Assembly: GCA_040218735.1 (NCBI GenBank)
Contig: JAVJQW010000021.1
Location: 1-27,628 of the forward strand
Direction of reading: 5' to 3'
Length of the DNA stretch: 27,628 nt
From: Deltaproteobacteria bacterium
GTDB taxonomy: Bacteria; Myxococcota; Kuafuiibacteriia; Kuafuiibacteriales; Kuafuiibacteriaceae
Shown: piece by piece, positions 3,907 through 26,867 of the stretch
How positions within the stretch are numbered: position 1 is the first letter of the stretch
Layout of the letters: each line of letters starts with the position of its first letter
Notes under the pieces: generated by a model
Told to the model about the DNA's origin: nothing
The model's database searches: none
What the model saw: only the letters and a program-made list of their open reading frames with translations
Translations under genes and position numbers: made by a program

Positions 3907-4500
3907 TCAAGGTGAGCGCGTGAGCACCTTCTTGATTCGGTGCTGTCCGACCCACGCCTTCTTGTTCGACTCCGTCGCCGTGACCTCGATCGAAGTCAGG
4001 TAGGTGCGCACCGCCTTACCCCCCGCCTCGTCGTTCTGCGAGACGATCCAACCGTTCATCAGGAAGTCCGCAGCCGTCTCGAGGCCCTGACTCTTCGCCG
4101 TCTCGTCGCTCGCATTCTCGGCCTGGTCCGCGCGCTCGTCACGCATCGCGTCGGCCTCCTCCATGCTGCTCACGACCTCGACCTGTCCCGAGTTGATCAG
4201 CGCCGCCTCGATCTGCTTCGTAAAGTACCGGTAGTCCAGGTACCCGTCCGTCTTGTTGCGCACCGGCGCGAGCCGCACCACCGGCTTTCGCCCCGCCTCC
4301 TTCGCGAACATCTGCGCCCACGGGCTCGTCAGACACTTCACGATGATCGCCTGCGCCACCGCGTCCGCGTCGACGTCGTTCCACTCCCCCGACAAATCCA
4401 GCGCCTCGTTGGTTCGCTCGATCTTCGGCCCCTCCGCCGGTGGGGTCGACGAAGCACAAGCGCTCGCGAGCAGGAACAGCAACGGAGTCGGACGACGCAT
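3907..4500 (-). CDS. LpoB-family lipoprotein (penicillin-binding protein activator LpoB-like fold)
   Basis: Lipobox LLASAC. Blocks align, from my memory of E. coli LpoB, as follows: SGEWNDVD vs YDWNGAM; KPVVRLAPVRNKTDGYLD vs LLVDSVNNRTNGSLN; QIEAALINSGQVEVVS vs TLRNALANNGKFTLVS; LTSIEVTATESNKKAWVGQ vs LQMQLMLVQTGEIIWSGK. Confidence 0.7.
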   Translation of the reverse strand: MRRPTPLLFLLASACASSTPPAEGPKIERTNEALDLSGEWNDVDADAVAQAIIVKCLTSPWAQMFAKEAGRKPVVRLAPVRNKTDGYLDYRYFTKQIEAALINSGQVEVVSSMEEADAMRDERADQAENASDETAKSQGLETAADFLMNGWIVSQNDEAGGKAVRTYLTSIEVTATESNKKAWVGQHRIKKVLTRSP

Positions 4501-4555
4501 GCTGCGGACGTTAGGTCACTCCGGCGCCTCACGAAAGTCCGCTATCATCCGCCGC

Positions 4556-6055: not shown

Positions 6056-7548
6056 TCCTCGAGTTGCTCACGATGATGACCATCGCGTCCGCCGGGGAGC
6101 CGGCGGCGGTGCGCTACGCGGTGAAGGTCGAGACACGCTCCTGGGAGCCGATCGCGATCAAACAGGTCGAGAAGTTCGTCGAAGCGGCGGTGACCGCCGA
6201 GCTGTCGAAGACCAAGTCGATGCGCCTCGAGCGCGCTTCGTTCGCGGACGTGAGGAAGGGCGACTACTCGATCGCGATCCTCGGGCGCTTCGTCGAAGAA
6301 GCGGAGCGCTTCAGCGTCTACCTCACGTTCGGGCCGGGCGCGAAGGACGACCTCCCGACCTACTTCGCGAGCGACACCTCCGAGCCCCTCGGCCGACAGA
6401 AACGCAGCGTGATGCAGGCGCGCATCGACGCCGCCGCGCGCCGCGCGGGGGAGCGGTTGGCTCAGGTCGTCGGGCCGGCGCTCGAGAGTGTTCGGCTGCG
6501 TATCGATCCGCTGCCGATCGAGGAGCCGGACCTCCCGGTGCGGTGGGGTGAGGTCGACGTCCCCGAGGTCACGACGAAGGACAAGGCGATTCGTGACCTC
6601 CTCGACGTCCGCAACCCGGACCACGTTCGCCACAAGGCGCTCACCAAGATCCAAGGTTTTGCGTTCGACCAGCAGGTGGCGCGCAACGCGATCGAGCGGT
6701 GTGTGTTGTTCGACCCGCTCGCGGATCTGCGCGCACGGTGTGTGAAGGCGCTGGCGCCCATCGCGCGCGCGCACGTCCCGACGCAACGTGTCTTGCTCCA
6801 CGCAATGCGCGTCGACGTCGACGACAACGTCCTCGCCGCGCTCACCGACGTGTCGAAGGGCTTCGTCGGACTGTCGCGCCTGGAGACGCTCTCGACGTGG
6901 CTTCACCTCCTCGCCCGCCCCGGCACCCCGGAGCGCGCGGCCGGGGCCATCGCGCAGCTCGTGGCGAGGGAGGAGGAGGTCGCCAACCTCGAGTTCGCGG
7001 TGGCGGCGTGTCTGCAGCAGGACATCGTCGAGACCTCCAAGCGCTACGACTGTGCGCGGTATCTACTGAAGCGATTGCCGCGGAGCCGCCAGGTCGCGGC
7101 CGCGTGGTCCTACCTGCGCGAGGCGAGTGTCTACGGGACGGGGGAGAAGCTCGCGTACGAGGCGGTGCTCGACGTCATCGCGCCGCGTGCGACGCGCGAG
7201 CCGGTCGACGATCGTGTCCCGCAGCTCCTCCTCGATCTCGCGGAGCGTCGCGCCACCGGGCACGTGCGGTACGCGCTGATCTACCGCGCGGGGGACCGCG
7301 CGCCCGCGACGCCCGCGACGATCGAACGGCTCCTGAAGATCGCGCACGACCAAAAACACGCGACGGCCGCGATTCGCGCGGCGGTGGAGGTCGCGGACCG
7401 CGGAGAGGATCTGCTCCCGATGACGCTCGGTGGGCTGAAGCAGCTCGAGAAGAAGGCGCGCTGGTTCCCGCAGCCCTCGCGCGGCAACCCGTACCGCGAT
7501 CTCGCGAAGGCGATCGAACGCGTGGAGCGCAAGCTCGAGAAGAAGTGA
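6052..7548 (+). CDS. paralog B of the preceding gene (novel N-terminal domain plus HEAT-like repeats)
   Basis: ATGA overlap with paralog A. Collinear similarity: VRYAVKVETRSWEPI vs VRVVYRVEADVGSWQPI; MRLER vs MRLDR; VYLTFGPGAKDDLPT vs VYLSFGPGTEHDVPS; HEAT-like CVLFDPLADLRARCVKALAPIARAHVPT; C-terminal KAIERVERK vs KAIERAEAK. Confidence 0.6.
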   Translation: MILELLTMMTIASAGEPAAVRYAVKVETRSWEPIAIKQVEKFVEAAVTAELSKTKSMRLERASFADVRKGDYSIAILGRFVEEAERFSVYLTFGPGAKDDLPTYFASDTSEPLGRQKRSVMQARIDAAARRAGERLAQVVGPALESVRLRIDPLPIEEPDLPVRWGEVDVPEVTTKDKAIRDLLDVRNPDHVRHKALTKIQGFAFDQQVARNAIERCVLFDPLADLRARCVKALAPIARAHVPTQRVLLHAMRVDVDDNVLAALTDVSKGFVGLSRLETLSTWLHLLARPGTPERAAGAIAQLVAREEEVANLEFAVAACLQQDIVETSKRYDCARYLLKRLPRSRQVAAAWSYLREASVYGTGEKLAYEAVLDVIAPRATREPVDDRVPQLLLDLAERRATGHVRYALIYRAGDRAPATPATIERLLKIAHDQKHATAAIRAAVEVADRGEDLLPMTLGGLKQLEKKARWFPQPSRGNPYRDLAKAIERVERKLEKK

Positions 7549-15032: not shown

Positions 15033-15596
15033 TCAGCACTTCGCGACGAAGCACTTCTTCGTCACGGCCTGCCTCAGCGACGCGGCGATTTCGCGCGTGA
15101 GCGCGTCGATGTCGGCGACGTCGGCGCGCTCGATCTCCTTGTGCGCGAACCGGTCCGCCTCCGAGCACCCCGACCACAACGAGTAACCCCAGCGTTCGAG
15201 GTCGGCGGGCGTCCACAGGTCGACGTAGATGTGGTCTTCGCCGCACGCGAGGTGGTGCGCGGCGTCGGCCATCTCACTCGAGTACTGCACCGCCGAGGTC
15301 ATCGGCAGCTCGGGGTGCGAGGCGAGCTCGAGCGACAGCGACTCGGCGACCTCTTCGTAGACGAGCTGCCGCGTCGACGGGTCGACGGACATGCCGACGT
15401 CCTTGAAGGAGATGACGTCGAACGGGAGCTCGGAGGTCATCCGCACCACGAAGGGGGAGTAGGTCGGCCCCGCCACCGCGGCTACCGCCGGCGCGGCCAC
15501 GGGAACTGGCGCCTCGGCCGCCTCACGGCAGGCGCCGACGGCAGCGAGCACCAGGGCGATCGTCGAGAGGCGGAGGGTTCGCTGGCCTACCTTCAT
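15033..15596 (-). CDS. hypothetical lipoprotein, several Cys residues, no recognised domain
   Basis: Lipobox LAAVGAC. High-GC codon usage. Its stop abuts the kinase stop, forming TGATCA. Confidence 0.5.
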   Translation of the reverse strand: MKVGQRTLRLSTIALVLAAVGACREAAEAPVPVAAPAVAAVAGPTYSPFVVRMTSELPFDVISFKDVGMSVDPSTRQLVYEEVAESLSLELASHPELPMTSAVQYSSEMADAAHHLACGEDHIYVDLWTPADLERWGYSLWSGCSEADRFAHKEIERADVADIDALTREIAASLRQAVTKKCFVAKC

Positions 15597-15633: not shown

Positions 15634-17025
15634 CTAGAACTCGTACCGCACACACGCGTACTCGAAGTTGATGCGCGGGTAGTGATACACGAAGTTGAAG
15701 CACATCTCGTCCGCCGAGCCTTCACCCCATTCAACGTCCTGATTCTGCGTGTTGTACTCGCAGCGCGTCCGCAGGCGGTCGCCGGACTGGAGCTGCTGGT
15801 GCTCCGGGGCGATGTCGACGTTGGGCTGATCGTTGAAGTCCCACGCCTGGATGTCGACGAGGCTGATCCACTCCGTCGAGCCGCTGCGCTGCAGCTCCAG
15901 CGAGATCTTCGTCCCGGTTTGGTGCAGGTGCGGGAAGACCGAGAAAATCGTCATGTTCTGGCTGACGTTCCAGGTCTGCGTCTTCACCTCGGCCGGCCCG
16001 TTGATCGAGCCCTGCCAGATGTTGCCGCACCAGAGCATGCCGGCCTCTTCGAGGTTCGTGTCGTCCGTGAGGATGACGCGCGCGCCGCTGTTGTCGGTCT
16101 GGTTGCCGTCCGAGACGCTGTCGTAGTGGACCTGCAGGATGAGCTGCTCACCCTGCGCAATCGGCACGCCGGCGCCGCGCGGGATCTCGTCTGCGGTGCG
16201 GCCGGGCGCCCAGCCCGCGACCATGTTCCAGGACAGCTGCACCGACCCGCAGTCGAACGGCACACCCTCCGGCTCGAGCTGGCCCGTGTTCTTGAACAGC
16301 AGCGTGTGGTGCGTGTGCGCCGTGTTGTCGATCAGCGGCTCGAACCGGAACATGTACTCCTGCCCCGTCGCGTTGCCGGCCGGGACGGTCAGCGCCCAGC
16401 AGCGGTAGTTCGTCGTGCGCTGCGGCAGCTCGTAGGGGTCAGTGCTGTTGGGCTGCGTCGCGCGGATCTCCAGCACGCGAGAGACGGTGCGGGTGTCCGG
16501 TTCGCCACCGTCGCGTGGGACGTCGCCGCCGTCGCGCGTGTCGACGCCGCCGTCACGGTCCGGCGAAGGCGGCGTGCCCTCGGGCGCGCCGATCTCGGAC
16601 CACAGCGTGATGAGCGCGCGCTCCTCGTCGGTGAGCTGCGGCTGGCTGGGCGGCGGCATGCGCTGCTGCGAAGCGTTGATGCGCGCGGCCATGATCTCGT
16701 GCACCGGCGTCCCCGCGCTCGCGACCTGGGTGTGGTCGTAGTCGACGAACGGCCGGGGCGCTCCGAACTGCGGCGGCTCTGCGTGGCAGAGCTGGCACTT
16801 CTCGGCGACGATCGGCTGGACGTCCTGCCACCACGTCACCTCCGCGACGCCGCCGTCGCGCGGATCTTCGATCGTCTCGCCGGCGTCGCGCGGGTCCTCG
16901 ATCGTCGGGCCGCCGTCGCGCTCGACGGGCGGTTCGATCGTCGTCTCGGGCGTGGATTCGCAGGCTACGAGGGCCACGAAGGAGAGGCCGGCGATGAGCT
17001 TCGTCGCGGTGGGATGCACGGGCAC
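15634..17025 (-). CDS. lipoprotein fusing a c-type cytochrome domain (CxxCH) to a PHM/DBH-like copper type II monooxygenase domain
   Basis: Lipobox FVALVAC. WWQDVQPIVAEKCQLCHA is a Planctomycete-type cytochrome c motif with CxxCH. The C-terminal domain aligns to peptidylglycine alpha-hydroxylating monooxygenase with all six Cu ligands: AHTHHTLLF (HH), LILQVHYD (H), FPHLHQTG (HxH) and ADEMCFNFVYHY (Met in EMC). A GTG start is inferred; 17019 is an alternative. Confidence 0.7.
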   Translation of the reverse strand: MPVHPTATKLIAGLSFVALVACESTPETTIEPPVERDGGPTIEDPRDAGETIEDPRDGGVAEVTWWQDVQPIVAEKCQLCHAEPPQFGAPRPFVDYDHTQVASAGTPVHEIMAARINASQQRMPPPSQPQLTDEERALITLWSEIGAPEGTPPSPDRDGGVDTRDGGDVPRDGGEPDTRTVSRVLEIRATQPNSTDPYELPQRTTNYRCWALTVPAGNATGQEYMFRFEPLIDNTAHTHHTLLFKNTGQLEPEGVPFDCGSVQLSWNMVAGWAPGRTADEIPRGAGVPIAQGEQLILQVHYDSVSDGNQTDNSGARVILTDDTNLEEAGMLWCGNIWQGSINGPAEVKTQTWNVSQNMTIFSVFPHLHQTGTKISLELQRSGSTEWISLVDIQAWDFNDQPNVDIAPEHQQLQSGDRLRTRCEYNTQNQDVEWGEGSADEMCFNFVYHYPRINFEYACVRYEF

Positions 17026-17090: not shown

Positions 17091-17885
17091 CTACCTGCGG
17101 ATGAGCTCCCCGACCACGTACGACGCCATCAGCTCGTTCACGACCGGGATGCGCATCAGGACCGGCGCGAGGAGGTCTCGCGCGGGGAGGCTGGAGAAGG
17201 TCACGTGCTCGAAGCGCCCGACGTCGAAGTCGTGCCGCCCTACCAGTGTCTTGAACGGCGCGACGTTGAGCTGGTTGATGTAACCCTGCTCGGCGAACGA
17301 CGACCACGCGCGCCACTTGTTGGGCATCAGGTTACCGTCGTCGTCGTAGTTCCAGGGGCGGAGGACCTTCTCCTCTTCGTCGTAGAGGCGCTCGGCGGTG
17401 CGGAACAACGCCTTCTCGCCGAACACGAAGTGCGCCCAAGGTATGGGAATCATCGCCTCCATGTGCGGCGCCCACGGCGAACGGTACGGGCACCACTCCA
17501 GGAGGACTTTGCCGCCGGGACGCAGCACGCGGCGCCACTCGCGGACGATGACGTCCGGCTCCATGACGTGCTCGATGACGTCGAACGCGAGGAGCGTGTC
17601 GGCGCAGGCGTCGGGGAGGGGGATGCCGTCCGGCGAGCCCTGGACGAACGAGACCTCGGTCTCGCCGAAGTCCTGTGCCTCGGCCTGCCGCTGGCACTCG
17701 GCGGCGGAGGGGCCGTGCAGCTCGACGCCGACGATCGATCGCGGCTTCCGCTCGGCGAGGTAGAACGTGAGGTTCCCTTTGCCGCTCCCGAAGTCGATGA
17801 CGTCCTTGCCGGCGATGTCGTCGTCCGAGAAGTGCCGCCACGATCGCGCGAGCGCTTCGCCGCGCCAGGCGACGTACTTGTCCAT
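17091..17885 (-). CDS. class I SAM-dependent methyltransferase
   Basis: Motif I VIDFGSGKG, acidic residue ending beta2 (VGVEL), motif II LLAFDVIEHV, motif III LRPGGKVLL. The upstream part of the track ORF is a Ser/Thr/Arg-rich shadow of the VanZ gene. An alternative GTG start lies at 17963. Confidence 0.7.
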   Translation of the reverse strand: MDKYVAWRGEALARSWRHFSDDDIAGKDVIDFGSGKGNLTFYLAERKPRSIVGVELHGPSAAECQRQAEAQDFGETEVSFVQGSPDGIPLPDACADTLLAFDVIEHVMEPDVIVREWRRVLRPGGKVLLEWCPYRSPWAPHMEAMIPIPWAHFVFGEKALFRTAERLYDEEEKVLRPWNYDDDGNLMPNKWRAWSSFAEQGYINQLNVAPFKTLVGRHDFDVGRFEHVTFSSLPARDLLAPVLMRIPVVNELMASYVVGELIRR

Positions 17886-18030
17886 GTCCTGGACGTGGTC
17901 GCCCGCCGGCTTCACGAGTCGTCGACTCAGCTCGAACAGGACGCGCTCTCGTAGGCCCAGCACGGGACCGAGACGATGACATCTGGGCGGCGCGGCGCCA
18001 AGGGAGGTGAACCGCGGCGCGGATCTTGGG

Positions 18031-19263
18031 ATGCTCGGCGCCGTGACGCGGCGGTGGCTCGTGCTGTGGTGCGTCCTCGTCGCGCTCGGGACGCTGCACC
18101 CGTTCGTTCTGGATCCGCGCCCGGTCGTGGTGCCCTCCGACTCGTTCTTCGTGCCGCGCTTCAAGGGGCTCGATCCGCCGTTCAACGTGCTGATGTTCGT
18201 GCCGCTCGGGGCGCTGCTCTCGCGCCTCGGGTTGCGCACCGCGATGGCCGCGCTCGTCGGGTTGCTGGTGAGCGGTCTGATCGAGCTGTCGCAACACTTC
18301 ATCGCGTTTCGGGTGCCGGTCTTCGAAGACCTCGTCTTCAACACCGTCGGTGCGGCGTTGGGGGCGCGGGGGGTGCACGTCGTGGAGCGCGTCGGCCGCT
18401 TCGTGGAACGACACCTCCGCGTCCCAATCTTCGTGGTGACGACGGGGGTCGTCGTGTGGTCCGCCGCGCCGCCGCGCGTCGACGCGCGCCTGTGGTACTG
18501 GGCGGACTACGCCGAGCTGATCGTCGGGCGCGAGCAGCCCGGCAACTACGCCTACGCCGACGAGGTCCACGCCGCGCGACTGTACGCGGGGGCACACGCG
18601 CCCGATGCGCTCCCAGAAGCGATCTGGTCGTACGGCGTCGACGACGAAGGCCGCTTCCCCGCGATCACCGAACGCATCGAGGCGACGGGCGCGTTCACGA
18701 TCGACGTCGACTTCGACGCCGCACCCCGCGACGAGCTCCTCCGACGCATCTTCACGTACTCGGCCGGGGTGCAGCGCAGGAACTTCCTCTTCGGCGCGCG
18801 CGGGGACGAGCTCGTGTTCCGCGTGCGCACGCGCGTCACGCCGATCGTCGGGCTGTTCACCAACCTCGAAGAGCCGTTGACGCTCCCGCGTCCGCCCGGA
18901 CGTGCCCGCGTCACGATCGCTTACGACGTCGGCGTGGTTCGCGCGTGGGTCGACGGTGCGCCCGTCGCGACGAAACACTTCAAGCTCCCCGAGCACAACG
19001 GCGTGCGGACGTTCTGGCTGCCGCGCGACGCGCTCGGCGTGTGGCTGTTTTGGTTCTCGGCGGGGCTGGTCGTCGCAGCGGGGGCGGCGTTCCTGAGGCG
19101 ACGCTGGGCGATAGCGATCGCGCTCGGGATCGGCGTCGCGTTGGAGATCGCGCAGGTCGTGATGTTCGACCGCGCGCCCGATCTCACCGCCGTCGTTCCA
19201 CTCGTCGTCGGCGCGATGCTCGGCGCATGGTCAGCGCGAAGCCGAGCCACAGCAGACCCGTGA
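18031..19263 (+). CDS. VanZ-family membrane protein with a central beta-rich domain and two C-terminal TM helices
   Basis: The VanZ-like N-terminus has 4 helices (WLVLWCVLVALG, FNVLMFVPLGALL, LVSGLIELSQHF, LVFNTVGAALG). C-terminal TMs GVWLFWFSAGLVVAAGAAF and AVVPLVVGAMLGAW. Alternative GTG start at 18007. Confidence 0.6.
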   Translation: MLGAVTRRWLVLWCVLVALGTLHPFVLDPRPVVVPSDSFFVPRFKGLDPPFNVLMFVPLGALLSRLGLRTAMAALVGLLVSGLIELSQHFIAFRVPVFEDLVFNTVGAALGARGVHVVERVGRFVERHLRVPIFVVTTGVVVWSAAPPRVDARLWYWADYAELIVGREQPGNYAYADEVHAARLYAGAHAPDALPEAIWSYGVDDEGRFPAITERIEATGAFTIDVDFDAAPRDELLRRIFTYSAGVQRRNFLFGARGDELVFRVRTRVTPIVGLFTNLEEPLTLPRPPGRARVTIAYDVGVVRAWVDGAPVATKHFKLPEHNGVRTFWLPRDALGVWLFWFSAGLVVAAGAAFLRRRWAIAIALGIGVALEIAQVVMFDRAPDLTAVVPLVVGAMLGAWSARSRATADP

Positions 19264-21253
19264 TCCCCGACGGCGTGCGCGTCGTGTTCGTGCAGGCGCA
19301 ACCGTCCTCCGCCTCCGGGGGCGACGGCGTGAGGAGCGGTGGTCGTACGATACGCCCGCCGTCCGCGACGCCGCCGTCGGCGCTCGGGCCCGCGTCGCGT
19401 CCCACGCTCCCGTCGTCGGGTGGGGCGGCGTCACGGCTCTCACCGGAGTCCGGCACGCCGCCGTCACGCATCATCACCGGCGACAGCAAGAACAGCTCGC
19501 CGTAGCGCTCCGGCTCCTTGCCGGCGCCGATCCCCGCGGTCCACTCCGTCCACCCGACGCGCCCGGCGCCGTCGGCGTCGTTCACGAGGAACGAGAACCC
19601 GATCAGCTCGCCCGCGAACCACGACGCCTGCGGCAGCGTCGCGTGGGGGATCGCGATCTCGTAGCTCGTCGTCGTCCCCTGGCGCATCGACACCACGCTC
19701 ATCGTCGTCGGGCCCGTGCCCTGTTCGCGGAACACCCGCGTCGTCGAGCCGTCCGTCGAACGTGCGTAGGTGAGCTCGTGGTCGTCGGCGTCGTAGCCGG
19801 TCCCGCCGGTCTGCAGCGGATCGAACGCGAGCTGCACGCTGTCGCCCATCCACATCGTCTCGAGGGGGGCGTCGTTGTCGTGCACGTCGTCGGTGACTTC
19901 GATCCCGAAGTAGAGGTTCGTCGCATCCCACGCGGCGGCGATGCGCACGGCGTGGTCGTCCGTACCGAGCTCTTCGGTGCCACGCCACGACGTCGTCGGG
20001 ACGGGCATCCACCCCATGAGCTCGGAGGGGTCGCCGTCGATCGTCGGCGTCGCGACGGGGAGGCTGATGCGCATCCGCGGCGGGTCGTCGGACTCGTCGT
20101 CGTCCTCCGCGCCGGAGCACCCGCGGTCGTCGCCGTCGACGCGCCCGTCTCCGTCGTTGTCGACGCCGTCGCCGCACTCGGGAGGTGGCGTTGCGCTCAC
20201 CACCGCGGGGTTGTCGACGATGAACTGCTTCAGCGCGGCGAAGGCCGGCTTGAGTCGGAAGTCGCCAGGGAAGTTGCGTTGCCCCGCGACGCCGCCGGTC
20301 GGGCGCATCAAACCGAACCCATCGATCGTGCACGTGGGCTGGTCCACGCCGCAGTCCGTGACCTCGTAGAAGAACGTGTTCGTGACCCACGCGCGCTGCA
20401 GCTGTTCTTCGAGCGCGCGCCGCACGTAGATGGCTTGCAGCTGCTCCTCACCCGCGTCCCCGATCGGCGTCGCGCGGTAGCCGGTCTCGGTGATCCACAC
20501 GTCGCCCGTCCAGCCGGCGTCGTCGAGGAGCTGGCGGAGGTCACGTCGCGTGAACGTGAAGCGCTGGTCGTCGAGGACGTTGATGTAGCTGTCGCCTTCC
20601 CAGATGCGCCAGCCGGTCTCCTCGAAGTCCTGGTAGATGTGGTGCGTGATGATGTCCCACGCGCCGGGTGTGCGCGTGAGGACTTCTTCCAGCGCGTCGT
20701 CCGCGTCGCCGACGTTCGCGAGGTCCGGCCCGAGCACCACGCAGTCCGCGCACGCGGCGCGCAACGCGGCGGCGCCGGGGTTCACGATGATCGTCGCGTA
20801 CTCTTCGAGCGAGCCCTCCCAGAAACCTTGGAGGTTCGCTTCGTTCCACAGCCCGAAGTGTGTCACGCCGAGCGCCCGGTAGTGCGTGACCGCGTTGGTG
20901 ACGAAGTTGGTCCACTCCGTCGAAGCGTTCGGGACGTCGTTGCCGGCGTTGCCGTCCGAGTCGCCGTGGCGCGGCACCCAGCTCGGCGTGTACGCGAGCG
21001 TGAGGTAGACGTTCAGCCCGGACGCGACCGCGTCCGACACCGCGGCGTCGAGGAACGTCCACTGGTAGACGTTCGGCGCGGTCTCGAGCTGGAACCAGTT
21101 GGCGTCCATCCGCACCCACGTCACGCCGAGGTCCGCCGCAGCATCGATGAACGCGGGCGTCCCGTTGTGCACGTTGAGGCCGACGTCGTTGTCACCGGGC
21201 GCCGCGAGCGCCGAGGCGGGGAACAGGAGCAGGAGGAGGGCCGCGCGTCGCAC
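19184..21253 (-). CDS. secreted clan GH-A glycoside hydrolase (GH5/GH39-like TIM barrel) with CBM9-like domain and MYXO-CTERM-like sorting tail
   Basis: A GTG start gives signal VRRAALLLLLFPASALA. The catalytic-region motif is GLWNEANL. The C-terminal beta-sandwich resembles CBM9 (WDATNLYFGIEVTDDVHDND..DSVQLAFDP). The tail is DGCACTNTT..GITGLLWLGFALTMRRASRRRR: a Cys motif, a hydrophobic helix and an Arg-rich end. Confidence 0.7.
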   Translation of the reverse strand: MRRAALLLLLFPASALAAPGDNDVGLNVHNGTPAFIDAAADLGVTWVRMDANWFQLETAPNVYQWTFLDAAVSDAVASGLNVYLTLAYTPSWVPRHGDSDGNAGNDVPNASTEWTNFVTNAVTHYRALGVTHFGLWNEANLQGFWEGSLEEYATIIVNPGAAALRAACADCVVLGPDLANVGDADDALEEVLTRTPGAWDIITHHIYQDFEETGWRIWEGDSYINVLDDQRFTFTRRDLRQLLDDAGWTGDVWITETGYRATPIGDAGEEQLQAIYVRRALEEQLQRAWVTNTFFYEVTDCGVDQPTCTIDGFGLMRPTGGVAGQRNFPGDFRLKPAFAALKQFIVDNPAVVSATPPPECGDGVDNDGDGRVDGDDRGCSGAEDDDESDDPPRMRISLPVATPTIDGDPSELMGWMPVPTTSWRGTEELGTDDHAVRIAAAWDATNLYFGIEVTDDVHDNDAPLETMWMGDSVQLAFDPLQTGGTGYDADDHELTYARSTDGSTTRVFREQGTGPTTMSVVSMRQGTTTSYEIAIPHATLPQASWFAGELIGFSFLVNDADGAGRVGWTEWTAGIGAGKEPERYGELFLLSPVMMRDGGVPDSGESRDAAPPDDGSVGRDAGPSADGGVADGGRIVRPPLLTPSPPEAEDGCACTNTTRTPSGITGLLWLGFALTMRRASRRRRVERRR

Positions 21254-21303
21254 GCGTACCTCATGCCGTCCCTGCGCCGTTACGTCGACCGTCGATCGTC
21301 GGT

Positions 21304-24300
21304 TCAGTACCGCCAGCGAACCTCGAGGTAGTCCGCGGCGATCGCGCCGTCGCCCCCGGCGGCCGTCGTGAGGTTCGCACGACACCCGATCCGAGCGCGC
21401 CCGTCGCCGCCGATGATGGCTTGGGCGAACGTCGCGGCGTCGGCGATCGACGGCGCGAACTCGAGTGACGATGCCGACGGGCTCGCCGTCGTGTTTGTGC
21501 CGAGGTCGGTCGTCGTGGTGCCCGTGAGAACGTAGAGCGCGGCGCCGTCGCCCGTCACGCCGTACCCGGCGAAGCTCCCGCCGCAGGACGCACGCACCCT
21601 CACATCCTCGAGCGCGGCGACGCTGACGTTCGAAGGGAGCGCGGCGGACAGCTCGGTGCGCGGATCGACGGGGAGCGCGAGCTCCCAGGTGTCGTCGGCC
21701 ACGCCGTCCAATTGGCTGATGTCGAAGCCGCCGTGCACGATGAAGCGGCTCCGCGCGTCGTCGAAGACGAGGTTGCTCAAGTGGCGCGCCCGCGGGATGC
21801 GACCGACGGACGGCATTCGCAGGGACCAGTCCGCGCCGTCGTACGCCCAGACCTCCGTGTGGGTGATCCGCATGGCCATGTCGAACGTGGTCGATCCGCT
21901 GAACAGGACCAGCTCCCGACGCGCCGGGTCGTACGCCAGCTTTCCGCGCTGTGGTGGTGCGTTGGCCGTGACGACCTCCGTCCAGGTGGACCCGTCCCAC
22001 TCCCAGGTGTCGGTCCGTTGGTAGCCGCCGTACAGGACGACACGTTCGCGCACGGGGTCGTCGCCGAGCGCGGCGTACAGTCGCGACGGCGGGTTCGTGC
22101 CGACGGGCGTGACGTCGGTCCACGCCGCGCCGTCCCAGGTCCAAGTGTCGCCGTTTCGGTCGAAGAGGAGCGTGACGCCGCGCGCGGCGTCATACGCTGT
22201 TGCGAGGAACTGCGCCGGGGGCCTCGCGCCCGTCGCCGGCGTGATGTCGGTCCAGCTCGTCCCGTCCCACGCCCACGTCGCGACGAGGCTGCTCCCGGTC
22301 CGCGTTCCGAACGCCGCGACGTGCCCTCGCGCCGCGTCGTACGCCGCGTCCGCCACGAACGTCGCGGACGGCGGGCCCGACGCGACCTGGTTCCACGCGT
22401 TGCCGTCCCAGATCCAGGTCTCATCGACGTCGAGCGTCAGCGTCTCGAGCCGCGCGGCGTCGTACACCACGGGGCCGTCCACCTCGACGGGGCTGGTCTC
22501 GACCGGGGTCACGTCTGTCCACGCGACGCCGTCCCACGTCCACAGATCCGTATGTTCGAAGAACGAGTTCCCGCCGTACAGCACCACCCGGCCGATGCCG
22601 GCGTGGTACACCATCGCCGCGCTCTCGCGTGGTTCCGGGCGAGGACCGACCGGCGTCACCTCCGTCCACGAAGTCCCGTCCCACTCCCACACGTCGTCGA
22701 GGTAGTTCGGCGTCGCGTAGCCGCCGGCGAGCACGACGACGCCACGCCCGGCGTCGTAGGCCATCGCTTGCCCCGAGCGCGCGCTGGGACGTGGACCCGC
22801 CGGATTCTCGAGGCTCCACGTTCCGCCGCTCAGCGTCCACAGCTCGTCGGGGCCCTCTCCACCACCGAACACGACGAGCTCCTGCCGAGCGACGTCGAAC
22901 GCCATCGAGTGTCCCGCCGTTCGTGCGGGGGCACCCGTCGTCGGGACGACCGACCAGTTCGTGCCGTCCCAGCTGTAGAGGTTCCTGTCCGCCGGGACGC
23001 CGAAGTCGATGAAGCCGGCGAACAGGACCACGCGAGCGAGGACCGGATGGTAGGCCATCGCGTGGAATTCGCGTGCTTCCGGCGGCGTGGTCGGGGTGCC
23101 GAGGAGCCAGCGTGTGCCGTTCCACATCCAGGTGTCGTCGCGTGAGGGGAACGCGTCGCCACCGAACAGGACCGTCTCGCCGCGTTGCGCGTCGTACGCG
23201 ATCGACGTGAGCTGCCGGCCGTACGGGCGCGGCCCCACGGGGGTGCGATCGGACCACACCGAGCCGTCCCACTCCCAGACGGCCTCGTCGGTCCACACCA
23301 CGGTGTGAACCAGCCGGTCTCGCTGCGCGTCGTAGGTGAGCGTCGGGAAGGTGTCCGCGTGGGGGTTGTGGCGCTCGGCGACGCGGTACCACACGTCGTC
23401 GGGCGTGTGGACGAGGACCGACGTGTCGCGCGCCGCGACGCTCGAGGTCACGATCGGTGCGCCGATGTTCGACCCGTCGCCGAACGCAAACGTGTGCGGG
23501 CTCGCGGCGAGGTCCGCAGACGAAGCGACGTACCACGAACGTTCGATGCGAACCGGCTGGGACGGTACTTCACTCGCGCCGATCGCGACGACGTCGACGT
23601 AGGCGGCGTCGCTCGATGCGAGCGCGAGGTCCACGCGTGACCACGAACCGTCGGCGGCCGGGAGGATCCAACCCGACACCGGCGCGCCCTCTGCGAACAC
23701 ACGAATCGCCGCGGCCGGTCCGCTCGCGAGGGCGAACGTGTCCGGCGGGAGCGCGGCGACGTCCTCGAGCTCGTCCAACGGAGCGAGGGTGTAGCGCGCG
23801 GGCCCGGCCGGGATCGTGAAGCTGCCGAGATCCTCCGCGGTGAGGTTCACGTGCGGCGCGCGCACGTAGCTCACCTGATCCTGGTCGACGAGCAAGGTGG
23901 GCGCTGACGTCGCGATCTGAAACGCGGCCGTGGCGGTCACGGTGTTCCCCGCGCGATCCTCGAGGAGCTCGGCGACGGCGTACGTACCGTCGGCACCTCC
24001 GAACGCCGCGGTGATCTGCGCGGCGTAAGTCGCGCCGGTCGGCGAAGCGCTCCCGGTGATCTGCGTGAGGGTGAGGACGTCCGCGCCGTTCGTCGCGTCG
24101 ATCGTGGCCGGCAGCGCCTCCAGCGGTTCGTCGGCGTCGAGCGCGACGCTCACGGTGCTCCCGATCGTCGCCACGTCGAGCGTCGGCAGCACGACGCCGA
24201 CGTTCGGCGCTAGCGCCACCATCGTCGTGACCTCGGGCGACCGGGTGTCGAGGACGAGCTCGAGCTGCACCGGAGCAGAGGTCTGTCCGATGGCGTCCAC

Positions 24301-24888
24301 GAAGCGCGCGAAGACGACGCGCGCGCAGTCGTCACGACGCGGGTGGGGGCTGGCCGGTCCAAGGCCGCAGTCGTCGGTGAGGCCGACGTTCAGATCCCAC
24401 GTGACGTCGTAGCTGCACGGCTGCGTCGAGCCCGGCGTGTCGTCGCAGGGGTCGGCGGTGCGCGTGGCGGTCCCGGTGAACGCGAAACCGGCGCAGGCCG
24501 GCGCGCTCGCGGTGAGGGCCGCGCACAGCGAACGCTGCGGGTCGAACGCGGCGTCGTTCGAGATCTCCGCGTGCACGCCGTCGGAGGTGATCCGGAGGAC
24601 AGCCTCGGCGTCGGCCAAGGGGCTTCGTCCGAGGTAGGTCAGCGCGGCGGACGGCACGGGCACGCCGCCGTCCCGCGGGGGCCCGGCGTCGCGCGGCCCG
24701 GCGTCCCGATCGCCTGCATCACGGTCTCCGGCGTCGCGGTCTCCGGCGTCACGGTCTCCTGCGTCCCGGACGGTGCCGGCGTCTCGCGCCGAGCCGGCGT
24801 CGCGCTGCGGCGTGGGCGGCTCGGTGCCCGAGCAGGCCGCGAAGAGCACCGTGAGGAGAGCGATCGGGGAGTTCGTGCTGCGGGGCAT
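21304..24888 (-). CDS. large lipoprotein with Ig-like N-terminal region and at least 11 Kelch-type beta-propeller repeats
   Basis: Lipobox LTVLFAAC. RDAGD linker repeats. Repeated blades of about 45-50 aa, each with W.WDG..W..v.p.g..P..R...a.ayD..r...vlFGG (for example VWEWDGSVWSDRTPVGPRP, TWTWDGAAWTDVTPVG, VWAYDGADWSLRMPS). The start in the ORF track at 25062 is an upstream extension. Confidence 0.75.
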   Translation of the reverse strand: MPRSTNSPIALLTVLFAACSGTEPPTPQRDAGSARDAGTVRDAGDRDAGDRDAGDRDAGDRDAGPRDAGPPRDGGVPVPSAALTYLGRSPLADAEAVLRITSDGVHAEISNDAAFDPQRSLCAALTASAPACAGFAFTGTATRTADPCDDTPGSTQPCSYDVTWDLNVGLTDDCGLGPASPHPRRDDCARVVFARFVDAIGQTSAPVQLELVLDTRSPEVTTMVALAPNVGVVLPTLDVATIGSTVSVALDADEPLEALPATIDATNGADVLTLTQITGSASPTGATYAAQITAAFGGADGTYAVAELLEDRAGNTVTATAAFQIATSAPTLLVDQDQVSYVRAPHVNLTAEDLGSFTIPAGPARYTLAPLDELEDVAALPPDTFALASGPAAAIRVFAEGAPVSGWILPAADGSWSRVDLALASSDAAYVDVVAIGASEVPSQPVRIERSWYVASSADLAASPHTFAFGDGSNIGAPIVTSSVAARDTSVLVHTPDDVWYRVAERHNPHADTFPTLTYDAQRDRLVHTVVWTDEAVWEWDGSVWSDRTPVGPRPYGRQLTSIAYDAQRGETVLFGGDAFPSRDDTWMWNGTRWLLGTPTTPPEAREFHAMAYHPVLARVVLFAGFIDFGVPADRNLYSWDGTNWSVVPTTGAPARTAGHSMAFDVARQELVVFGGGEGPDELWTLSGGTWSLENPAGPRPSARSGQAMAYDAGRGVVVLAGGYATPNYLDDVWEWDGTSWTEVTPVGPRPEPRESAAMVYHAGIGRVVLYGGNSFFEHTDLWTWDGVAWTDVTPVETSPVEVDGPVVYDAARLETLTLDVDETWIWDGNAWNQVASGPPSATFVADAAYDAARGHVAAFGTRTGSSLVATWAWDGTSWTDITPATGARPPAQFLATAYDAARGVTLLFDRNGDTWTWDGAAWTDVTPVGTNPPSRLYAALGDDPVRERVVLYGGYQRTDTWEWDGSTWTEVVTANAPPQRGKLAYDPARRELVLFSGSTTFDMAMRITHTEVWAYDGADWSLRMPSVGRIPRARHLSNLVFDDARSRFIVHGGFDISQLDGVADDTWELALPVDPRTELSAALPSNVSVAALEDVRVRASCGGSFAGYGVTGDGAALYVLTGTTTTDLGTNTTASPSASSLEFAPSIADAATFAQAIIGGDGRARIGCRANLTTAAGGDGAIAADYLEVRWRY
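24668..24806 (-). repeat. in-frame 15-nt tandem repeat (about 9 copies) encoding the RDAGD/RDAGP pentapeptide linker of the Kelch lipoprotein
   Basis: On the plus strand: ggtctccggcgtcgc, ggtctccggcgtcac, ggtctcctgcgtccc and so on. The encoded protein is RDAGSARDAGTVRDAGDRDAGDRDAGDRDAGDRDAGPRDAGPP. Confidence 0.7.
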
Positions 24889-24971
24889 GCTCGCTTTCAA
24901 GTGCCGGCCGGCGCCTTGGCGTTCAATGCGTTTGACGCCGGGTGCGTTGTGGCCACCTTGGGCCTTCCGCC

Positions 24972-24990
24972 GTGCGGCGTCCAGCCGCAC
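24972..24990. promoter_or_regulatory. perfect 7-bp stem / 5-nt loop hairpin (gtgcggc gtcca gccgcac) in the divergent intergenic region, 27 nt upstream of the vWA gene ATG
   Basis: Inverted repeat read from the sequence. It lies between the Kelch start (24888) and the vWA start (25017). The SD AAGGGAG sits at 25003-25009. Confidence 0.2.
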
Positions 24991-25016
24991 AATTCCACAT
25001 CGAAGGGAGCCCACCC

Positions 25017-26867
25017 ATGGTGCTCGAGAACCTCGGCCCGGCCGAGACCATTCTGCAGACACTTCTGACCTACAGCGACCACATGGTCCACAACCGCCCC
25101 GGCATGGTCGTGACGGACGCCGGCACCGCGACGAAGGTGCGCTGGATCCCGGTGACCCACCGCGAGGAGGACGGACAGAAGGTCGTCTACCAGCTCCGCT
25201 CGGTACGCAACCGCACGCAGCGTTCTCGCGCCGGCGTGCTGCAGGACGACGGGCGGATCCTCGACGGCGGTCGCGTCGTCGGTCGTTACCAGCGCCCGGG
25301 CCTCTTCGCCGAGGTCGCGGCGTGGATGTACAAGCAGATCGCGGACGTCTACGAGCTCGACAACGAGTTCGCGGCGCGCTGGGCGTCGTTTGCGTACGCC
25401 CAGGAGCACCGCGACCTGAAGGTCGCGCTCGCGGCGTTCATGCTCGTGCAGTCGCGCAAGGGCGACCCGGTCCGCGAGGGCGGCGAGGTGCTCTTCTTCG
25501 ACGAGGACTACCGCGACGTCGGCGAGGCGATGATCCTGCTCTACGACAAGAAGAAGAAGGACCTGAACCCGAAGATGATCCTCCGGGTGCACGACCTGCT
25601 GTCGTTGGATCCGATCGCCCAGATCAACCGTGACCTCGGCTTCGGCCGGTCGGCGCGCGCGCCGTTCTACGGGCGCTGGTCGAAGGCCGTCGAGAAGTGG
25701 CTCGCGTACCGCGAGGACAACGTCCAGCTCCTCGAGGGCCTCGTGAAGGCGGGGTACCGCACCACGGTCATGGAGCTCGCGCGTCGTTCTCGCTACAAGC
25801 CGAAGACGGACAAGTTCTTCGAGCTGCTCCGCTGGAAGCAGAAGCAGTCGAAGGCGGGGCACCGTGACCTGGCGATCGGCGAGGACGTCGCGGCGGCGCA
25901 GACCTGGGATGACCTCACCGAGCGTGAGATCTGCGAGCGCATCGAGGAGGAGAAGCCGGGTTACAAGCGCATCGTCGGCATGCTGCCGAAGTCGATCGGT
26001 CTCACGCGGGCGATCCTCGCGGTGGCGATCGAGGCCGGCTCGCTGTCGGACAAGGATCTCGTGATCCTCACGCCGACGCTGGAGGCCCTCGGGATGCTGG
26101 AGATTCCGGAGCTGAAGTCGCGCTGGGCGTCGGCGGTCAAGGCCGCCGAGGACATGCGCGCGGCGAACATCGCCAAGCGCGTGAAGTCGCAGGAGGCGAA
26201 GGCCCAGCTCGAGGAGGCCGCGGAGGACGTGCTCAAGACGGCCGTGGAGGAGGTCGCGCGGAACATCCGCGTCTACTTCATGGTCGACATCTCGGGTTCG
26301 ATGGAGAACGCCATCGAGCAGGCCAAGGCGTACGTCGCCAAGTTCCTGCCGGCGTTCCCGGCCGAGCGGCTGCACATCAGCGTGTTCAACACGATGGGTC
26401 GCGAGGTGGAGCTGAAGCACCACTCGCAGTCCGGCGTGGAGCATGCATTCCGCGGCATCCGCGCGGGCGGTGGCACCGACTACGGCGCGGGCGTGCGTGC
26501 GCTCGCCGAGCACAAGCCGGCTGAGGACGAGGACGTGCTCTTCATCTTCATCGGCGACGAGCAGGCGAGCCCGTTCGACAACGCCGTGGTGCAGGCGGGG
26601 CTTCGTCCGATGGCGTTCGGGCTCGTTCAGGTGCAGTCGCAGTGGGGCGTGGGCAACTGCGTCCAGCAGACGGCGGCGCGCCTGGGCATCCCGTGCTTCA
26701 TGATCGACGAGGCGACGTTCGAAGACCCGTACGCGATCCCGCGTACGGTTCGCGACCTCGTCGCGTCGACGCCCGTTGGACAGGTTGCGGCCGGTGCGCG
26801 TCGTGAGGCGCTCGTCGACCGCATCATGAAGACGGAGCTTCTGAAGAAGCCGGCGTGGGCGGAGTAG
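25017..26867 (+). CDS. von Willebrand factor A (vWA) domain protein with about 430-aa N-terminal helical domain of unknown function (Ro60/TROVE-like architecture not excluded)
   Basis: Strong SD AAGGGAG 8 nt upstream. C-terminal vWA with MIDAS motif VYFMVDISGSM, then GGTDYGAG and FIFIGDEQ. No Walker A, so it is not a chelatase- or MoxR-type ATPase. The N-domain is helical and charged. Confidence 0.7.
   Translation: MVLENLGPAETILQTLLTYSDHMVHNRPGMVVTDAGTATKVRWIPVTHREEDGQKVVYQLRSVRNRTQRSRAGVLQDDGRILDGGRVVGRYQRPGLFAEVAAWMYKQIADVYELDNEFAARWASFAYAQEHRDLKVALAAFMLVQSRKGDPVREGGEVLFFDEDYRDVGEAMILLYDKKKKDLNPKMILRVHDLLSLDPIAQINRDLGFGRSARAPFYGRWSKAVEKWLAYREDNVQLLEGLVKAGYRTTVMELARRSRYKPKTDKFFELLRWKQKQSKAGHRDLAIGEDVAAAQTWDDLTEREICERIEEEKPGYKRIVGMLPKSIGLTRAILAVAIEAGSLSDKDLVILTPTLEALGMLEIPELKSRWASAVKAAEDMRAANIAKRVKSQEAKAQLEEAAEDVLKTAVEEVARNIRVYFMVDISGSMENAIEQAKAYVAKFLPAFPAERLHISVFNTMGREVELKHHSQSGVEHAFRGIRAGGGTDYGAGVRALAEHKPAEDEDVLFIFIGDEQASPFDNAVVQAGLRPMAFGLVQVQSQWGVGNCVQQTAARLGIPCFMIDEATFEDPYAIPRTVRDLVASTPVGQVAAGARREALVDRIMKTELLKKPAWAE

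What the first reader, a model, noticed from the sequence alone, without database searches (positions are those of the whole stretch)
15634..17025. Cytochrome c (CxxCH) fused to a PHM/DBH-like copper monooxygenase in a lipoprotein
Type II copper monooxygenases, such as PHM and dopamine beta-hydroxylase, normally take electrons from ascorbate. Here the catalytic core has all six Cu ligands conserved (HH, H, HxH, Met). It is fused downstream of a haem-c-binding domain of the Planctomycete cytochrome c type, and the protein is lipid-anchored. That suggests a periplasmic, haem-mediated electron supply to the Cu site. Bacterial PHM-like enzymes are poorly characterised, and this fusion could define a cytochrome-dependent subclass.
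Basis: partly seen in the sequence, partly recalled or inferred. Interest (0 to 1): 0.65.

Follow-up and report, generated by a model that had tools for sequence, protein, structure and literature searches.

The report
Haem-c-fused DBH/PHM-like copper monooxygenase lipoprotein
This gene encodes a membrane-anchored bacterial enzyme in which a small haem protein (cytochrome c) is joined to a copper oxygenase of the dopamine beta-hydroxylase/PHM family. The haem probably replaces vitamin C as the electron source, and the design is widespread in Myxococcota but has not been studied.

Summary
The protein has five parts:
- a lipoprotein signal (lipobox LVAC, Cys22)
- an acidic repeat tether
- a class I mono-haem cytochrome c domain (C77-x-x-C80-H81, axial Met123)
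- a roughly 30-residue disordered linker
- a two-domain DBH/PHM copper core with all six ligands (H239, H240, H300; H366, H368, M441)

The haem motif, the axial Met and all six copper ligands are invariant in an 82-sequence family alignment.

The fusion is a family trait. Of the 150 nearest representative clusters, 103 carry 1-4 CxxCH domains before the core, and 21 more are truncated inside that domain. All 80 genome loci that were fetched come from Myxococcota or loosely labelled MAGs. Many genomes hold several paralogues.

- The haem domain is c6/c551/cbb3-like, not PSCyt1.
- PHM's peptide-carboxylate residues (R240, N316, Y318) are Phe, Phe, Phe here, so a glycine-extended peptide substrate is unlikely.

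No gene neighbour is conserved and the substrate is unknown. Electron flow from haem to CuH is inferred, not shown. I found no paper on bacterial members. I rate it a new variant of a known kind, of moderate interest.

The parts
15634..17025 (-). Whole gene: 463-aa lipoprotein made of a cytochrome c domain and a DBH/PHM-like dicopper monooxygenase core (GTG start, stop codon at 15634-15636)
   Evidence: The same gene call appears on a 98%-identical contig.
16960..17025 (-). Lipoprotein signal peptide, aa 1-22. The lipobox L-V-A-C is at 16960-16971 and Cys22 is the lipidated residue.
   Evidence: Read directly from the sequence. Cys22 is at least 90% conserved. 87 of 120 homologues have a lipobox.
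16846..16959 (-). Acidic, Pro/Gly-rich disordered tether, aa 23-60. It contains a 30-nt tandem repeat at 16848-16921.
   Evidence: pLDDT below 60. Tandem repeat found.
16576..16845 (-). Class I mono-haem cytochrome c domain, aa 61-150, predicted as four helices
   Evidence: Domain profile against PDB: cytochrome c6 3dr0, E=3e-5, full-length alignment. Cytochrome_CBB3 matches 50 of 82 homologues. pLDDT above 90.
16783..16797 (-). Haem-attachment motif C77-Q-L-C80-H81
   Evidence: Invariant in alignment A1. Aligned with the CxxCH of cytochrome c6. Checked by translation.
16651..16659 (-). M123-P124-P125. Met123 is the presumed sixth (axial) haem ligand.
   Evidence: M123 and P124 are invariant. 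The motif aligns with the axial Met-Pro of cytochrome c6.
16486..16575 (-). Disordered inter-domain linker, aa 151-180, with RDGG repeats (21-nt tandem repeat at 16502-16554)
   Evidence: pLDDT 45-73. Repeat found. Linker length varies widely across the family.
16060..16485 (-). N-terminal beta-sandwich of the catalytic core (CuH domain), aa 181-322. CuH ligands: H239-H240 (16306-16311) and H300 (16126-16128). Q298 corresponds to PHM Q170.
   Evidence: Pfam PF01082. Alignments to DBH and PHM. Foldseek matches 4zel and 3mll. Ligands invariant.
15637..16059 (-). C-terminal beta-sandwich of the catalytic core (CuM domain), aa 323-463. CuM ligands: H366-L-H368 (15922-15930) and M441 (15703-15705). 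F364 (15934-15936) and F443-N-F445 (15691-15699) replace PHM R240, N316 and Y318.
   Evidence: Pfam PF03712. Alignments. Ligands invariant. Checked by translation.

Best explanation
The gene encodes a cell-envelope lipoprotein that contains its own electron-supply module and a copper monooxygenase.

Export and maturation (inferred): after export and lipidation at Cys22, the N-terminal domain is matured into a His/Met-ligated c-type haem, and the C-terminal core binds two copper ions (CuH and CuM).

Mechanism (inferred):
1. The haem accepts single electrons from the periplasmic respiratory pool, such as a soluble cytochrome c or the bc1 complex.
2. The haem passes them to the solvent-exposed CuH site, taking the role that ascorbate has in eukaryotic DBH and PHM.
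3. CuH relays the electrons to CuM.
4. O2 is activated at CuM and a C-H bond of a bound substrate is hydroxylated.

The substrate is unknown. The pocket has Phe at the three positions where PHM holds the peptide carboxylate. That points to a DBH-like, more hydrophobic or aromatic substrate rather than a glycine-extended peptide.

Shown here: the domain composition, the conservation of the ligands, the fold, the lipobox, the family-wide fusion and its restriction to Myxococcota. Inferred: haem and copper loading, the direction of electron flow, the hydroxylase chemistry and the type of substrate.
For: - The catalytic core is homologous to DBH and PHM. Pfam scores are above the cut-offs. phmmer finds DBH at 1.6e-14. 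The family profile finds DBH at 4e-42 and PHM at 1e-38. Foldseek gives 1e-18.
- The six copper ligands and the counterpart of Q170 are conserved.
- The N-terminal domain is a class I cytochrome c. CxxCH and the axial Met are invariant and align with cytochrome c6.
- The fusion is the dominant form among the nearest relatives: 103 of 150 carry CxxCH and 21 more are truncated inside the domain.
- Variants with 2, 3 or 4 tandem cytochrome domains look like electron wires.
- No electron-donor gene or other partner is conserved nearby, which fits a self-contained unit.
- AlphaFold gives pTM 0.79 for the full length and 0.89 for residues 61-463. That is higher than I would expect if the 90-residue haem domain were placed at random relative to the 283-residue core. 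This is an inference; no PAE or coordinates were available.
- Precedents exist. c-type cytochrome domains reduce bacterial LPMO copper centres (PMC8981238). Eukaryote-type relatives found here pair the same core with haem-b-type DOMON/CDH-cyt domains and cytochrome b561.
Against: - There is no experimental data on any bacterial member.
- This protein's own cytochrome domain scores below the Pfam cut-off (18.2 against 27 bits).
- About seven complete lipoprotein relatives lack the cytochrome domain, so the core can presumably be reduced in another way.
- The inter-domain linker is disordered and variable in length. This suggests a mobile rather than a fixed donor, and weakens the docking inference.
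- The substrate is entirely unknown.
Confidence: 0.6

Rival explanations
1. It is a bacterial PHM proper: it alpha-hydroxylates C-terminal glycine-extended peptides as the first step of amidation, with haem as the reductant.
For: The core is about as similar to PHM (1e-38) as to DBH (4e-42). A papain-like peptidase gene lies next to the gene in 4 of 84 loci.
Against: PHM R240, N316 and Y318, which bind the peptide carboxylate, align with F364, F443 and F445, and F445 is invariant. No PAL/NHL-type lyase or any other partner is conserved nearby. The motif after the Met ligand (C-F-N-F) resembles the DBH motif C-V-N-Y.
Confidence: 0.07
2. The copper core acts as an oxidase or peroxide-handling enzyme rather than a substrate hydroxylase. 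It would drain electrons from periplasmic cytochromes to O2 or H2O2, for example to generate reactive oxygen species during predation or to detoxify them. Alternatively it runs in reverse, passing electrons from a substrate to the haem.
For: No substrate-related neighbour is conserved. Many paralogues occur per genome in predatory Myxococcota. The built-in haem links the protein to the respiratory pool.
Against: The full DBH/PHM catalytic apparatus is strictly conserved, including the Met ligand of CuM and a lined pocket (F364, F443, N444, F445). To my knowledge, members of this family couple O2 reduction tightly to substrate hydroxylation (background: PMC9064607 abstract).
Confidence: 0.12
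3. The cytochrome domain is not the electron donor. It could be a structural, targeting or redox-sensing module, and the coppers are reduced by a small-molecule reductant, as in eukaryotes.
For: A few relatives lack the domain. The linker is disordered and variable.
Against: The haem-binding motif and the axial Met are invariant in 82 sequences and in more than 100 representative clusters. Multi-haem arrays precede the core in some members. To my knowledge bacteria generally lack ascorbate.
Confidence: 0.1
4. The CxxCH is a chance motif, or the gene is a decaying or mis-called ORF.
For: The Pfam cytochrome hit is below the cut-off for this protein.
Against: The motifs are conserved family-wide. 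GC3 is 0.84, typical of coding sequence here. The AlphaFold model is confident, with pLDDT 93.8. An independent gene call is identical.
Confidence: 0.01

Closest known systems
Dopamine beta-hydroxylase / tyramine beta-monooxygenase / MOXD (eukaryotic copper type II ascorbate-dependent monooxygenases; PDB 4zel)
   Same: Same two-beta-sandwich catalytic core. Same CuH (His-His...His) and CuM (His-x-His...Met) ligands. The motif after the Met ligand is similar (C-x-N-aromatic). An accessory domain sits N-terminal to the core.
   Different: The N-terminal accessory domain is a c-type cytochrome, not a DOMON domain. The DBH DOMON domain is reported to bind no haem (PMC10691727). There is no C-terminal dimerisation domain. 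The protein is lipid-anchored and bacterial. Identity is about 24%. The presumed reductant is a haem rather than ascorbate.
Peptidylglycine alpha-hydroxylating monooxygenase (PHM; PDB 1phm, 1opm, 3mll)
   Same: Same core fold and the same six ligands. Q170 corresponds to Q298. The cysteines are conserved.
   Different: The peptide-carboxylate residues R240, N316 and Y318 are Phe, Phe, Phe here. There is no PAL partner. A cytochrome c domain is fused to the core.
c-type cytochrome domains that reduce bacterial lytic polysaccharide monooxygenases (Cellvibrio japonicus Cbp2D/Cbp2E; PMC8981238), and the fungal cellobiose dehydrogenase cytochrome domain that feeds LPMOs
   Same: A haem domain in the cell envelope or outside the cell delivers single electrons to the copper centre of an oxygenase, so no small-molecule reductant is needed.
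   Different: The copper enzyme there is a mononuclear histidine-brace LPMO on a separate polypeptide. Here the acceptor is the dicopper DBH/PHM core on the same chain.
Three-domain copper nitrite reductases with a tethered cytochrome c domain (e.g. Ralstonia pickettii NirK). This item is from my own knowledge and was not checked here.
   Same: A class I cytochrome c is fused by a linker to a periplasmic copper enzyme and acts as a built-in donor.
   Different: Unrelated cupredoxin fold, a type 1 / type 2 copper pair, nitrite reduction chemistry, and a C-terminal rather than N-terminal cytochrome.
Eukaryote-type DOMON/CDH-cyt + DBH-like core + cytochrome b561 proteins (P0145 and P0227 found here), and CYBDOM redox-bridge proteins (PMC10691727)
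   Same: Haem domains are combined with the same copper core, or used as an extracellular electron relay.
   Different: They use haem b in a beta-sandwich DOMON domain or a transmembrane b561 domain, not covalently bound haem c in an alpha-helical class I fold. They are eukaryotic multi-core proteins.

Membership tests
Copper type II monooxygenase family (PHM/DBH; Pfam PF01082 + PF03712) | Two-domain beta-sandwich catalytic core detected by both family profiles | tested here: met
   PF01082 scores 43.7 bits (cut-off 30) and PF03712 scores 61.6 bits (cut-off 23). Family profile: DBH 4e-42, PHM 1e-38. Foldseek: 4zel at 1e-18.
Copper type II monooxygenase family (PHM/DBH; Pfam PF01082 + PF03712) | CuH site with three His (HH ... 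H) | tested here: met
   H239, H240 and H300 align with the DBH and PHM ligands and are invariant.
Copper type II monooxygenase family (PHM/DBH; Pfam PF01082 + PF03712) | CuM site with H-x-H ... Met | tested here: met
   H366, H368 and M441 are aligned and invariant.
Copper type II monooxygenase family (PHM/DBH; Pfam PF01082 + PF03712) | Conserved structural disulfides | tested here: inconclusive
   C209, C259, C422 and C442 are invariant and C458 is at least 90% conserved. The pairings could not be checked without model coordinates.
Copper type II monooxygenase family (PHM/DBH; Pfam PF01082 + PF03712) | Binds two Cu and hydroxylates a substrate with O2; ascorbate is the reductant | not testable with these tools
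   This needs biochemistry. The fused cytochrome suggests that ascorbate is replaced.
PHM proper (peptidylglycine alpha-hydroxylating monooxygenase) | R240, N316 and Y318 bind the C-terminal carboxylate of the peptide | tested here: not met
   They align with F364, F443 and F445. The family consensus is f-P-H-M-H and E-M-C-F-N-F.
PHM proper (peptidylglycine alpha-hydroxylating monooxygenase) | Associated PAL (lyase) domain or gene | tested here: not met
   The protein ends 22 residues after M441. No neighbour is conserved across 84 loci.
DBH/TBM/MOXD subfamily | N-terminal DOMON domain and C-terminal dimerisation domain | tested here: not met
   There is no DOMON hit. The N-terminal domain is an alpha-helical cytochrome c and there is no C-terminal extension.
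Class I c-type cytochrome (Pfam clan including Cytochrome_CBB3 PF13442) | CxxCH haem-attachment motif | tested here: met
   C77-Q-L-C80-H81 is invariant.
Class I c-type cytochrome (Pfam clan including Cytochrome_CBB3 PF13442) | Distal axial Met about 40-50 residues downstream, aligned with the Met of known cytochromes | tested here: met
   M123-P124 is invariant and aligns with the axial Met-Pro of cytochrome c6 3dr0.
Class I c-type cytochrome (Pfam clan including Cytochrome_CBB3 PF13442) | Profile score above the curated threshold | tested here: inconclusive
   This protein scores 18.2 bits against a cut-off of 27. 50 of 82 homologues hit at E<0.01, best 8.9e-7. The domain profile finds cytochrome c6 in PDB at E=3e-5.
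Class I c-type cytochrome (Pfam clan including Cytochrome_CBB3 PF13442) | Small all-alpha fold | tested here: met
   Four helices (65-76, 96-99, 108-116, 133-144), pLDDT above 90.
Class I c-type cytochrome (Pfam clan including Cytochrome_CBB3 PF13442) | Export to the periplasm for haem attachment; covalent haem | not testable with these tools
   A signal peptide is present. Haem attachment needs a haem stain or spectroscopy.
PSCyt1 (Planctomycete cytochrome C, PF07635) | Match to the PSCyt1 profile | tested here: not met
   No hit at E up to 10 for this protein. Only 1 of 82 homologues hits, at E=0.001.
Bacterial lipoprotein | Signal peptide ending in a lipobox [LVI][ASTVI][GAS]C | tested here: met
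   ...LSFVALVAC with Cys22. The Cys is at least 90% conserved. Whether the protein goes to the inner or outer membrane was not determined. The residue after the Cys is Glu here and is never Lys in 87 homologues.

The most novel reading that the evidence does not exclude
The family is a distinct class of DBH/PHM-type monooxygenases that is ascorbate-independent and coupled to the respiratory chain. A tethered c-type haem docks on CuH and feeds it electrons. Multiple paralogues in Myxococcota would hydroxylate different envelope or extracellular small molecules, for example prey-derived or signalling amines and aromatics. Because the donor is an optically addressable haem on the same chain, the family would offer a bacterial model for timing electron entry at CuH and the long-debated transfer from CuH to CuM. 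It may also lie close to the prokaryotic root of the eukaryotic enzymes.
Probability: 0.3. Interest if true: 0.75.

Novelty: new variant of a known kind. Interest (0 to 1): 0.55.

Why it matters
DBH and PHM are textbook enzymes, but how electrons enter CuH and cross about 11 Å to CuM is still debated. All 15 family sequences found among solved structures are mammalian: human DBH and mammalian PAM/PHM.

A bacterial member with a covalently attached haem donor could be expressed in a bacterium. It could be triggered by reducing the haem and followed optically, which would make those electron-transfer steps directly measurable.

The family also shows how bacteria that, to my knowledge, generally lack ascorbate could run this chemistry. 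It adds the DBH/PHM family to the copper oxygenases that may be fed by cytochromes; LPMOs are a demonstrated case (PMC8981238). It also marks a paralogue-rich and wholly uncharacterised enzyme family in Myxococcota, a phylum known for predation and natural products.

Tried and rejected
- NCBIfam gave no hit.
Seven looked for bacterial or Myxococcota DBH/PHM-like enzymes, the Pfam names, or ascorbate-dependent monooxygenase in M. xanthus, and found nothing relevant. The other two gave the comparison papers cited here.
- Gene context was examined for P0004, P0039, P0035, P0090 and P0016, and flanking ORFs of 84 loci were clustered. No neighbour is conserved across the family.
  - Ser/Thr kinases occur in 20 of 84 loci, which is about the background level for Myxococcota (my estimate).
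  - Histidine kinase, ABC permease and C1 peptidase neighbours are confined to subclades.
- The upstream methyltransferase is kept only in relatives of at least 71% identity. The downstream 187-aa lipoprotein is kept only in the 98% relative. I therefore rejected a functional operon link.
- The promoter and terminator scan found nothing.
- The afdb50 fold library was unavailable.
- Model coordinates and PAE are not exposed, so the haem-to-CuH distance could not be measured. I used the pTM of a trimmed construct as a weak proxy.
- I considered searching with the cytochrome domain alone for other architectures. I dropped it because the several hundred family members would fill the result list.
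Full report
**The gene.** The finding's coordinates are exact. The open frame on the minus strand ends at 15634. The upstream methyltransferase stops at 17091, and the GTG at 17025 gives a 463-aa product. An independent gene call on a 98%-identical contig (Logan SRR26209243) has the same 463-aa product and the same neighbours. GC3 is 0.84, typical of coding sequence in this 68% GC window. The N-terminus, (M)PVHPTATKLIAGLSFVALVAC, is a lipoprotein signal with lipobox LVAC. Cys22 is at least 90% conserved in homologues, and 87 of 120 homologues have a recognisable lipobox.

**Domains.**
- Pfam assigns aa 198-304 to Cu2_monooxygen (43.7 bits, cut-off 30) and aa 355-456 to Cu2_monoox_C (61.6 bits, cut-off 23).
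- The CxxCH region reaches only 18.2 bits against Cytochrome_CBB3 (cut-off 27), and PSCyt1 does not hit.
- NCBIfam has no model for the protein.
- The only solved relative found by single-sequence search is human DBH (E=1.6e-14).
- A profile of 82 family members finds DBH at 4e-42, PHM at 1e-38 and cytochrome c6 at 1e-4.
- AlphaFold models are confident. The full-length model has pLDDT 87.5 and pTM 0.79; residues 61-463 give pLDDT 93.8 and pTM 0.89. Both show a four-helix domain (aa 61-150), a disordered linker (about aa 151-180) and two beta-sandwiches (aa 181-463).
- Foldseek matches the core to DBH (1e-18) and to about 30 PHM entries. No other protein family appears above E=1e-5. All 15 family sequences found by the PDB profile search are mammalian (human DBH and mammalian PAM/PHM).

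**Metal and haem sites.** In the alignments with DBH and PHM, H239-H240 and H300 occupy the CuH positions. H366-x-H368 and M441 occupy the CuM positions, and Q298 matches PHM Q170. In an 82-sequence alignment that reaches down to 27% identity, the invariant residues include C77, C80, H81, M123, P124, H239, H240, H300, H366, H368 and M441, plus four cysteines. A 121-sequence alignment gives 97-100% conservation for the same positions. A profile of the N-terminal domain alone aligns over its full length with cytochrome c6 (3dr0, E=3e-5). It also aligns with c551/c552, the bc1 cytochrome c subunit and the cbb3 oxidase subunit, with CxxCH and the axial Met-Pro in register. Among 82 homologues, Cytochrome_CBB3 hits 50 and PSCyt1 hits 1. 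The domain is therefore a class I His/Met mono-haem cytochrome c, not the Planctomycete type.

**Substrate pocket.** The three PHM residues that hold the peptide's C-terminal carboxylate (R240, N316, Y318) align with F364, F443 and F445. The family consensus is f-P-H-M-H and E-M-C-F-N-F, and F445 is invariant. The motif after the Met ligand resembles the DBH motif C-V-N-Y. The protein ends 22 residues after M441, so there is no PAL domain and no DBH-type dimerisation domain. The enzyme belongs to the DBH/PHM family but is not a PHM. A glycine-extended peptide is an unlikely substrate.

**Distribution.**
- The first homology search gave 460 hits at E up to 0.001. Nearly all are unnamed, and the named ones come from Myxococcota or 'Deltaproteobacteria' MAGs.
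- 116 of the 120 listed hits have CxxCH upstream of the core. Two of the exceptions are fragments, one (P0025) is a mis-called product, and one (P0076) reads CxxCR.
- A scan of one genome per GTDB species found 139 relatives. The 80 loci kept are all from Myxococcota lineages (Polyangiaceae, Nannocystaceae, Sandaracinaceae, Labilithrix, Myxococcaceae, Archangiaceae) or from loosely labelled MAGs. Several genomes contribute two or three loci, and some loci hold tandem copies. The scan pattern (EMCFNFxxxY) is specific to this family, so the scan says nothing about other phyla.
- An exhaustive HMMER search with the catalytic core alone found 4476 representative clusters at E up to 1e-3 and 1581 at E up to 1e-10.
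- Among the best 150 clusters:
  - 103 have CxxCH before the core (97 with one, 4 with two, 1 with three, 1 with four).
  - 21 start inside the cytochrome domain and are truncated gene calls.
  - About 7 are complete lipoproteins without a cytochrome.
  - 10 are long eukaryote-type proteins with DOMON domains and two copper cores.
  - The rest are fragments.
- The fusion is thus the normal state of the bacterial branch closest to this gene.

**Context.**
- Close relatives (71-98% identity) share the whole neighbourhood: VanZ, methyltransferase, this gene, kinase, chalcone-isomerase-like, periplasmic binding protein.
- At 55% identity and below, the methyltransferase is gone. Loci at 29-48% identity have unrelated neighbours.
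- Clustering the flanking ORFs of 84 loci found no family-wide partner.
- The gene therefore works as a stand-alone unit, and context gives no clue to the substrate.

**Mechanism (inferred).** The protein is exported, lipidated and held on a roughly 38-residue acidic tether. The cytochrome domain is joined to the core by a linker that is disordered in the model. The distance from the end of the cytochrome domain to the HH motif ranges from 68 to 142 residues across the family, with a median of 83. I propose this sequence:
1. The haem takes single electrons from periplasmic carriers.
2. The haem reduces CuH.
3. CuH reduces CuM.
4. O2 is activated at CuM and a substrate C-H bond is hydroxylated.

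Support comes from the joint conservation of the haem and copper sites, the multi-haem variants, and the lack of any conserved donor gene. The high pTM of the trimmed model would be hard to reach if the 90-residue domain were placed at random relative to the 283-residue core. Precedent also helps: c-type cytochrome domains reduce bacterial LPMOs (PMC8981238). In eukaryote-type relatives found here, the same core sits with haem-b-type DOMON/CDH-cyt domains and cytochrome b561. The DOMON domain of DBH itself is reported to bind no haem (PMC10691727). None of this shows electron transfer. Haem loading, copper loading, the direction of flow and the chemistry are all inferred.

**Rivals.**
- A true PHM: disfavoured by the pocket residues and the absence of PAL.
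- An oxidase or peroxide-handling role without an organic substrate: possible, but the strictly conserved pocket argues against it.
- A cytochrome domain that is not a donor: possible, because a few relatives lack it.
- A chance motif: excluded by conservation.

**Novelty.** Seven literature searches aimed at bacterial members found no paper that describes them or this fusion. Database names are 'hypothetical protein' or occasionally 'cytochrome c5'. The parts are well known, and automatic domain annotation already shows them on some homologues. I therefore rate this a new variant of a known kind, not a new category. Its main value is as a tractable, ascorbate-independent model for electron entry and inter-copper transfer in DBH/PHM enzymes, and as a large uncharacterised enzyme family in Myxococcota.

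Noticed in passing
window 16848-16921 and 16502-16554: Two short in-frame tandem DNA repeats (30-nt and 21-nt units, about 2.5 copies each). They encode the (E/D)PRDGG-type repeats of the membrane tether and the inter-domain linker. The linkers may therefore expand and contract by repeat slippage.
   Followed up: partly
P0016, P0124 (4 CxxCH); P0019, P0022, P0025, P0028, P0041 (3); P0051-P0053, P0125, P0126, P0144 (2): Family members with two to four tandem cytochrome c domains ahead of the copper core. Their N-terminal motifs also hit the PccH profile. They look like short multi-haem wires.
   Followed up: partly
P0167, P0206, P0210, P0230, P0245, P0248: Complete lipoprotein relatives of the copper core that have no cytochrome c domain. 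The core can evidently exist without the built-in haem, and their electron donor is unknown.
   Followed up: partly
P0134, P0136, P0145, P0227 and other 637-1584-aa hits: Eukaryote-type proteins with two DBH-like cores and DOMON domains score closer to this bacterial core (E of 1e-39 to 1e-25, 30-33% identity) than human DBH does (24-25% identity). P0145 and P0227 also hit the haem-b CDH-cyt profile, and P0227 ends in a cytochrome b561 domain. Their source organisms are unknown.
   Followed up: partly
P0098, P0100, P0113, P0139, P0159 and about 12 other 590-660-aa members: A subgroup carries an extra C-terminal region of about 150-200 aa after the copper core, with no Pfam match.
   Followed up: no
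L009, L019, L033, L046, L068, L083: Two copies of the gene lie next to each other in several Myxococcota loci, either in tandem or divergent. Some genomes hold at least three dispersed paralogues.
   Followed up: no
P0076: One homologue reads C-Q-R-C-R instead of CxxCH. It may be a haem-less variant or a sequencing error.
   Followed up: no
window 15033-15596 (-): A 187-aa predicted lipoprotein (signal ...LAAVGAC) starts 37 nt downstream of the monooxygenase stop codon. It has no Pfam hit and no counterpart in the first 84 relatives' loci; only the 98%-identical contig fetched afterwards encodes it. Its C-terminal half holds four Cys.
   Followed up: partly
window 17091-17963 (-): The SAM-dependent methyltransferase upstream is 290 aa by comparison with relatives, not the 417 aa of the longest ORF. 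It probably shares a transcript with the monooxygenase (65-nt gap), but the adjacency is lost in relatives below about 70% identity. Separately, P0090 has an LCM-type methyltransferase downstream.
   Followed up: partly
window 4253-6055 (+) and 6052-7548 (+): Two consecutive large ORFs (600 and 498 aa) with high GC3 have no Pfam match at E up to 0.01.
   Followed up: no
window 19184-22144 (-) and 21304-25062 (-): The longest ORFs of a CBM9-domain protein and a Kelch-repeat protein overlap by about 840 nt in different frames. At least one start (or ORF call) is wrong and needs refinement.
   Followed up: no
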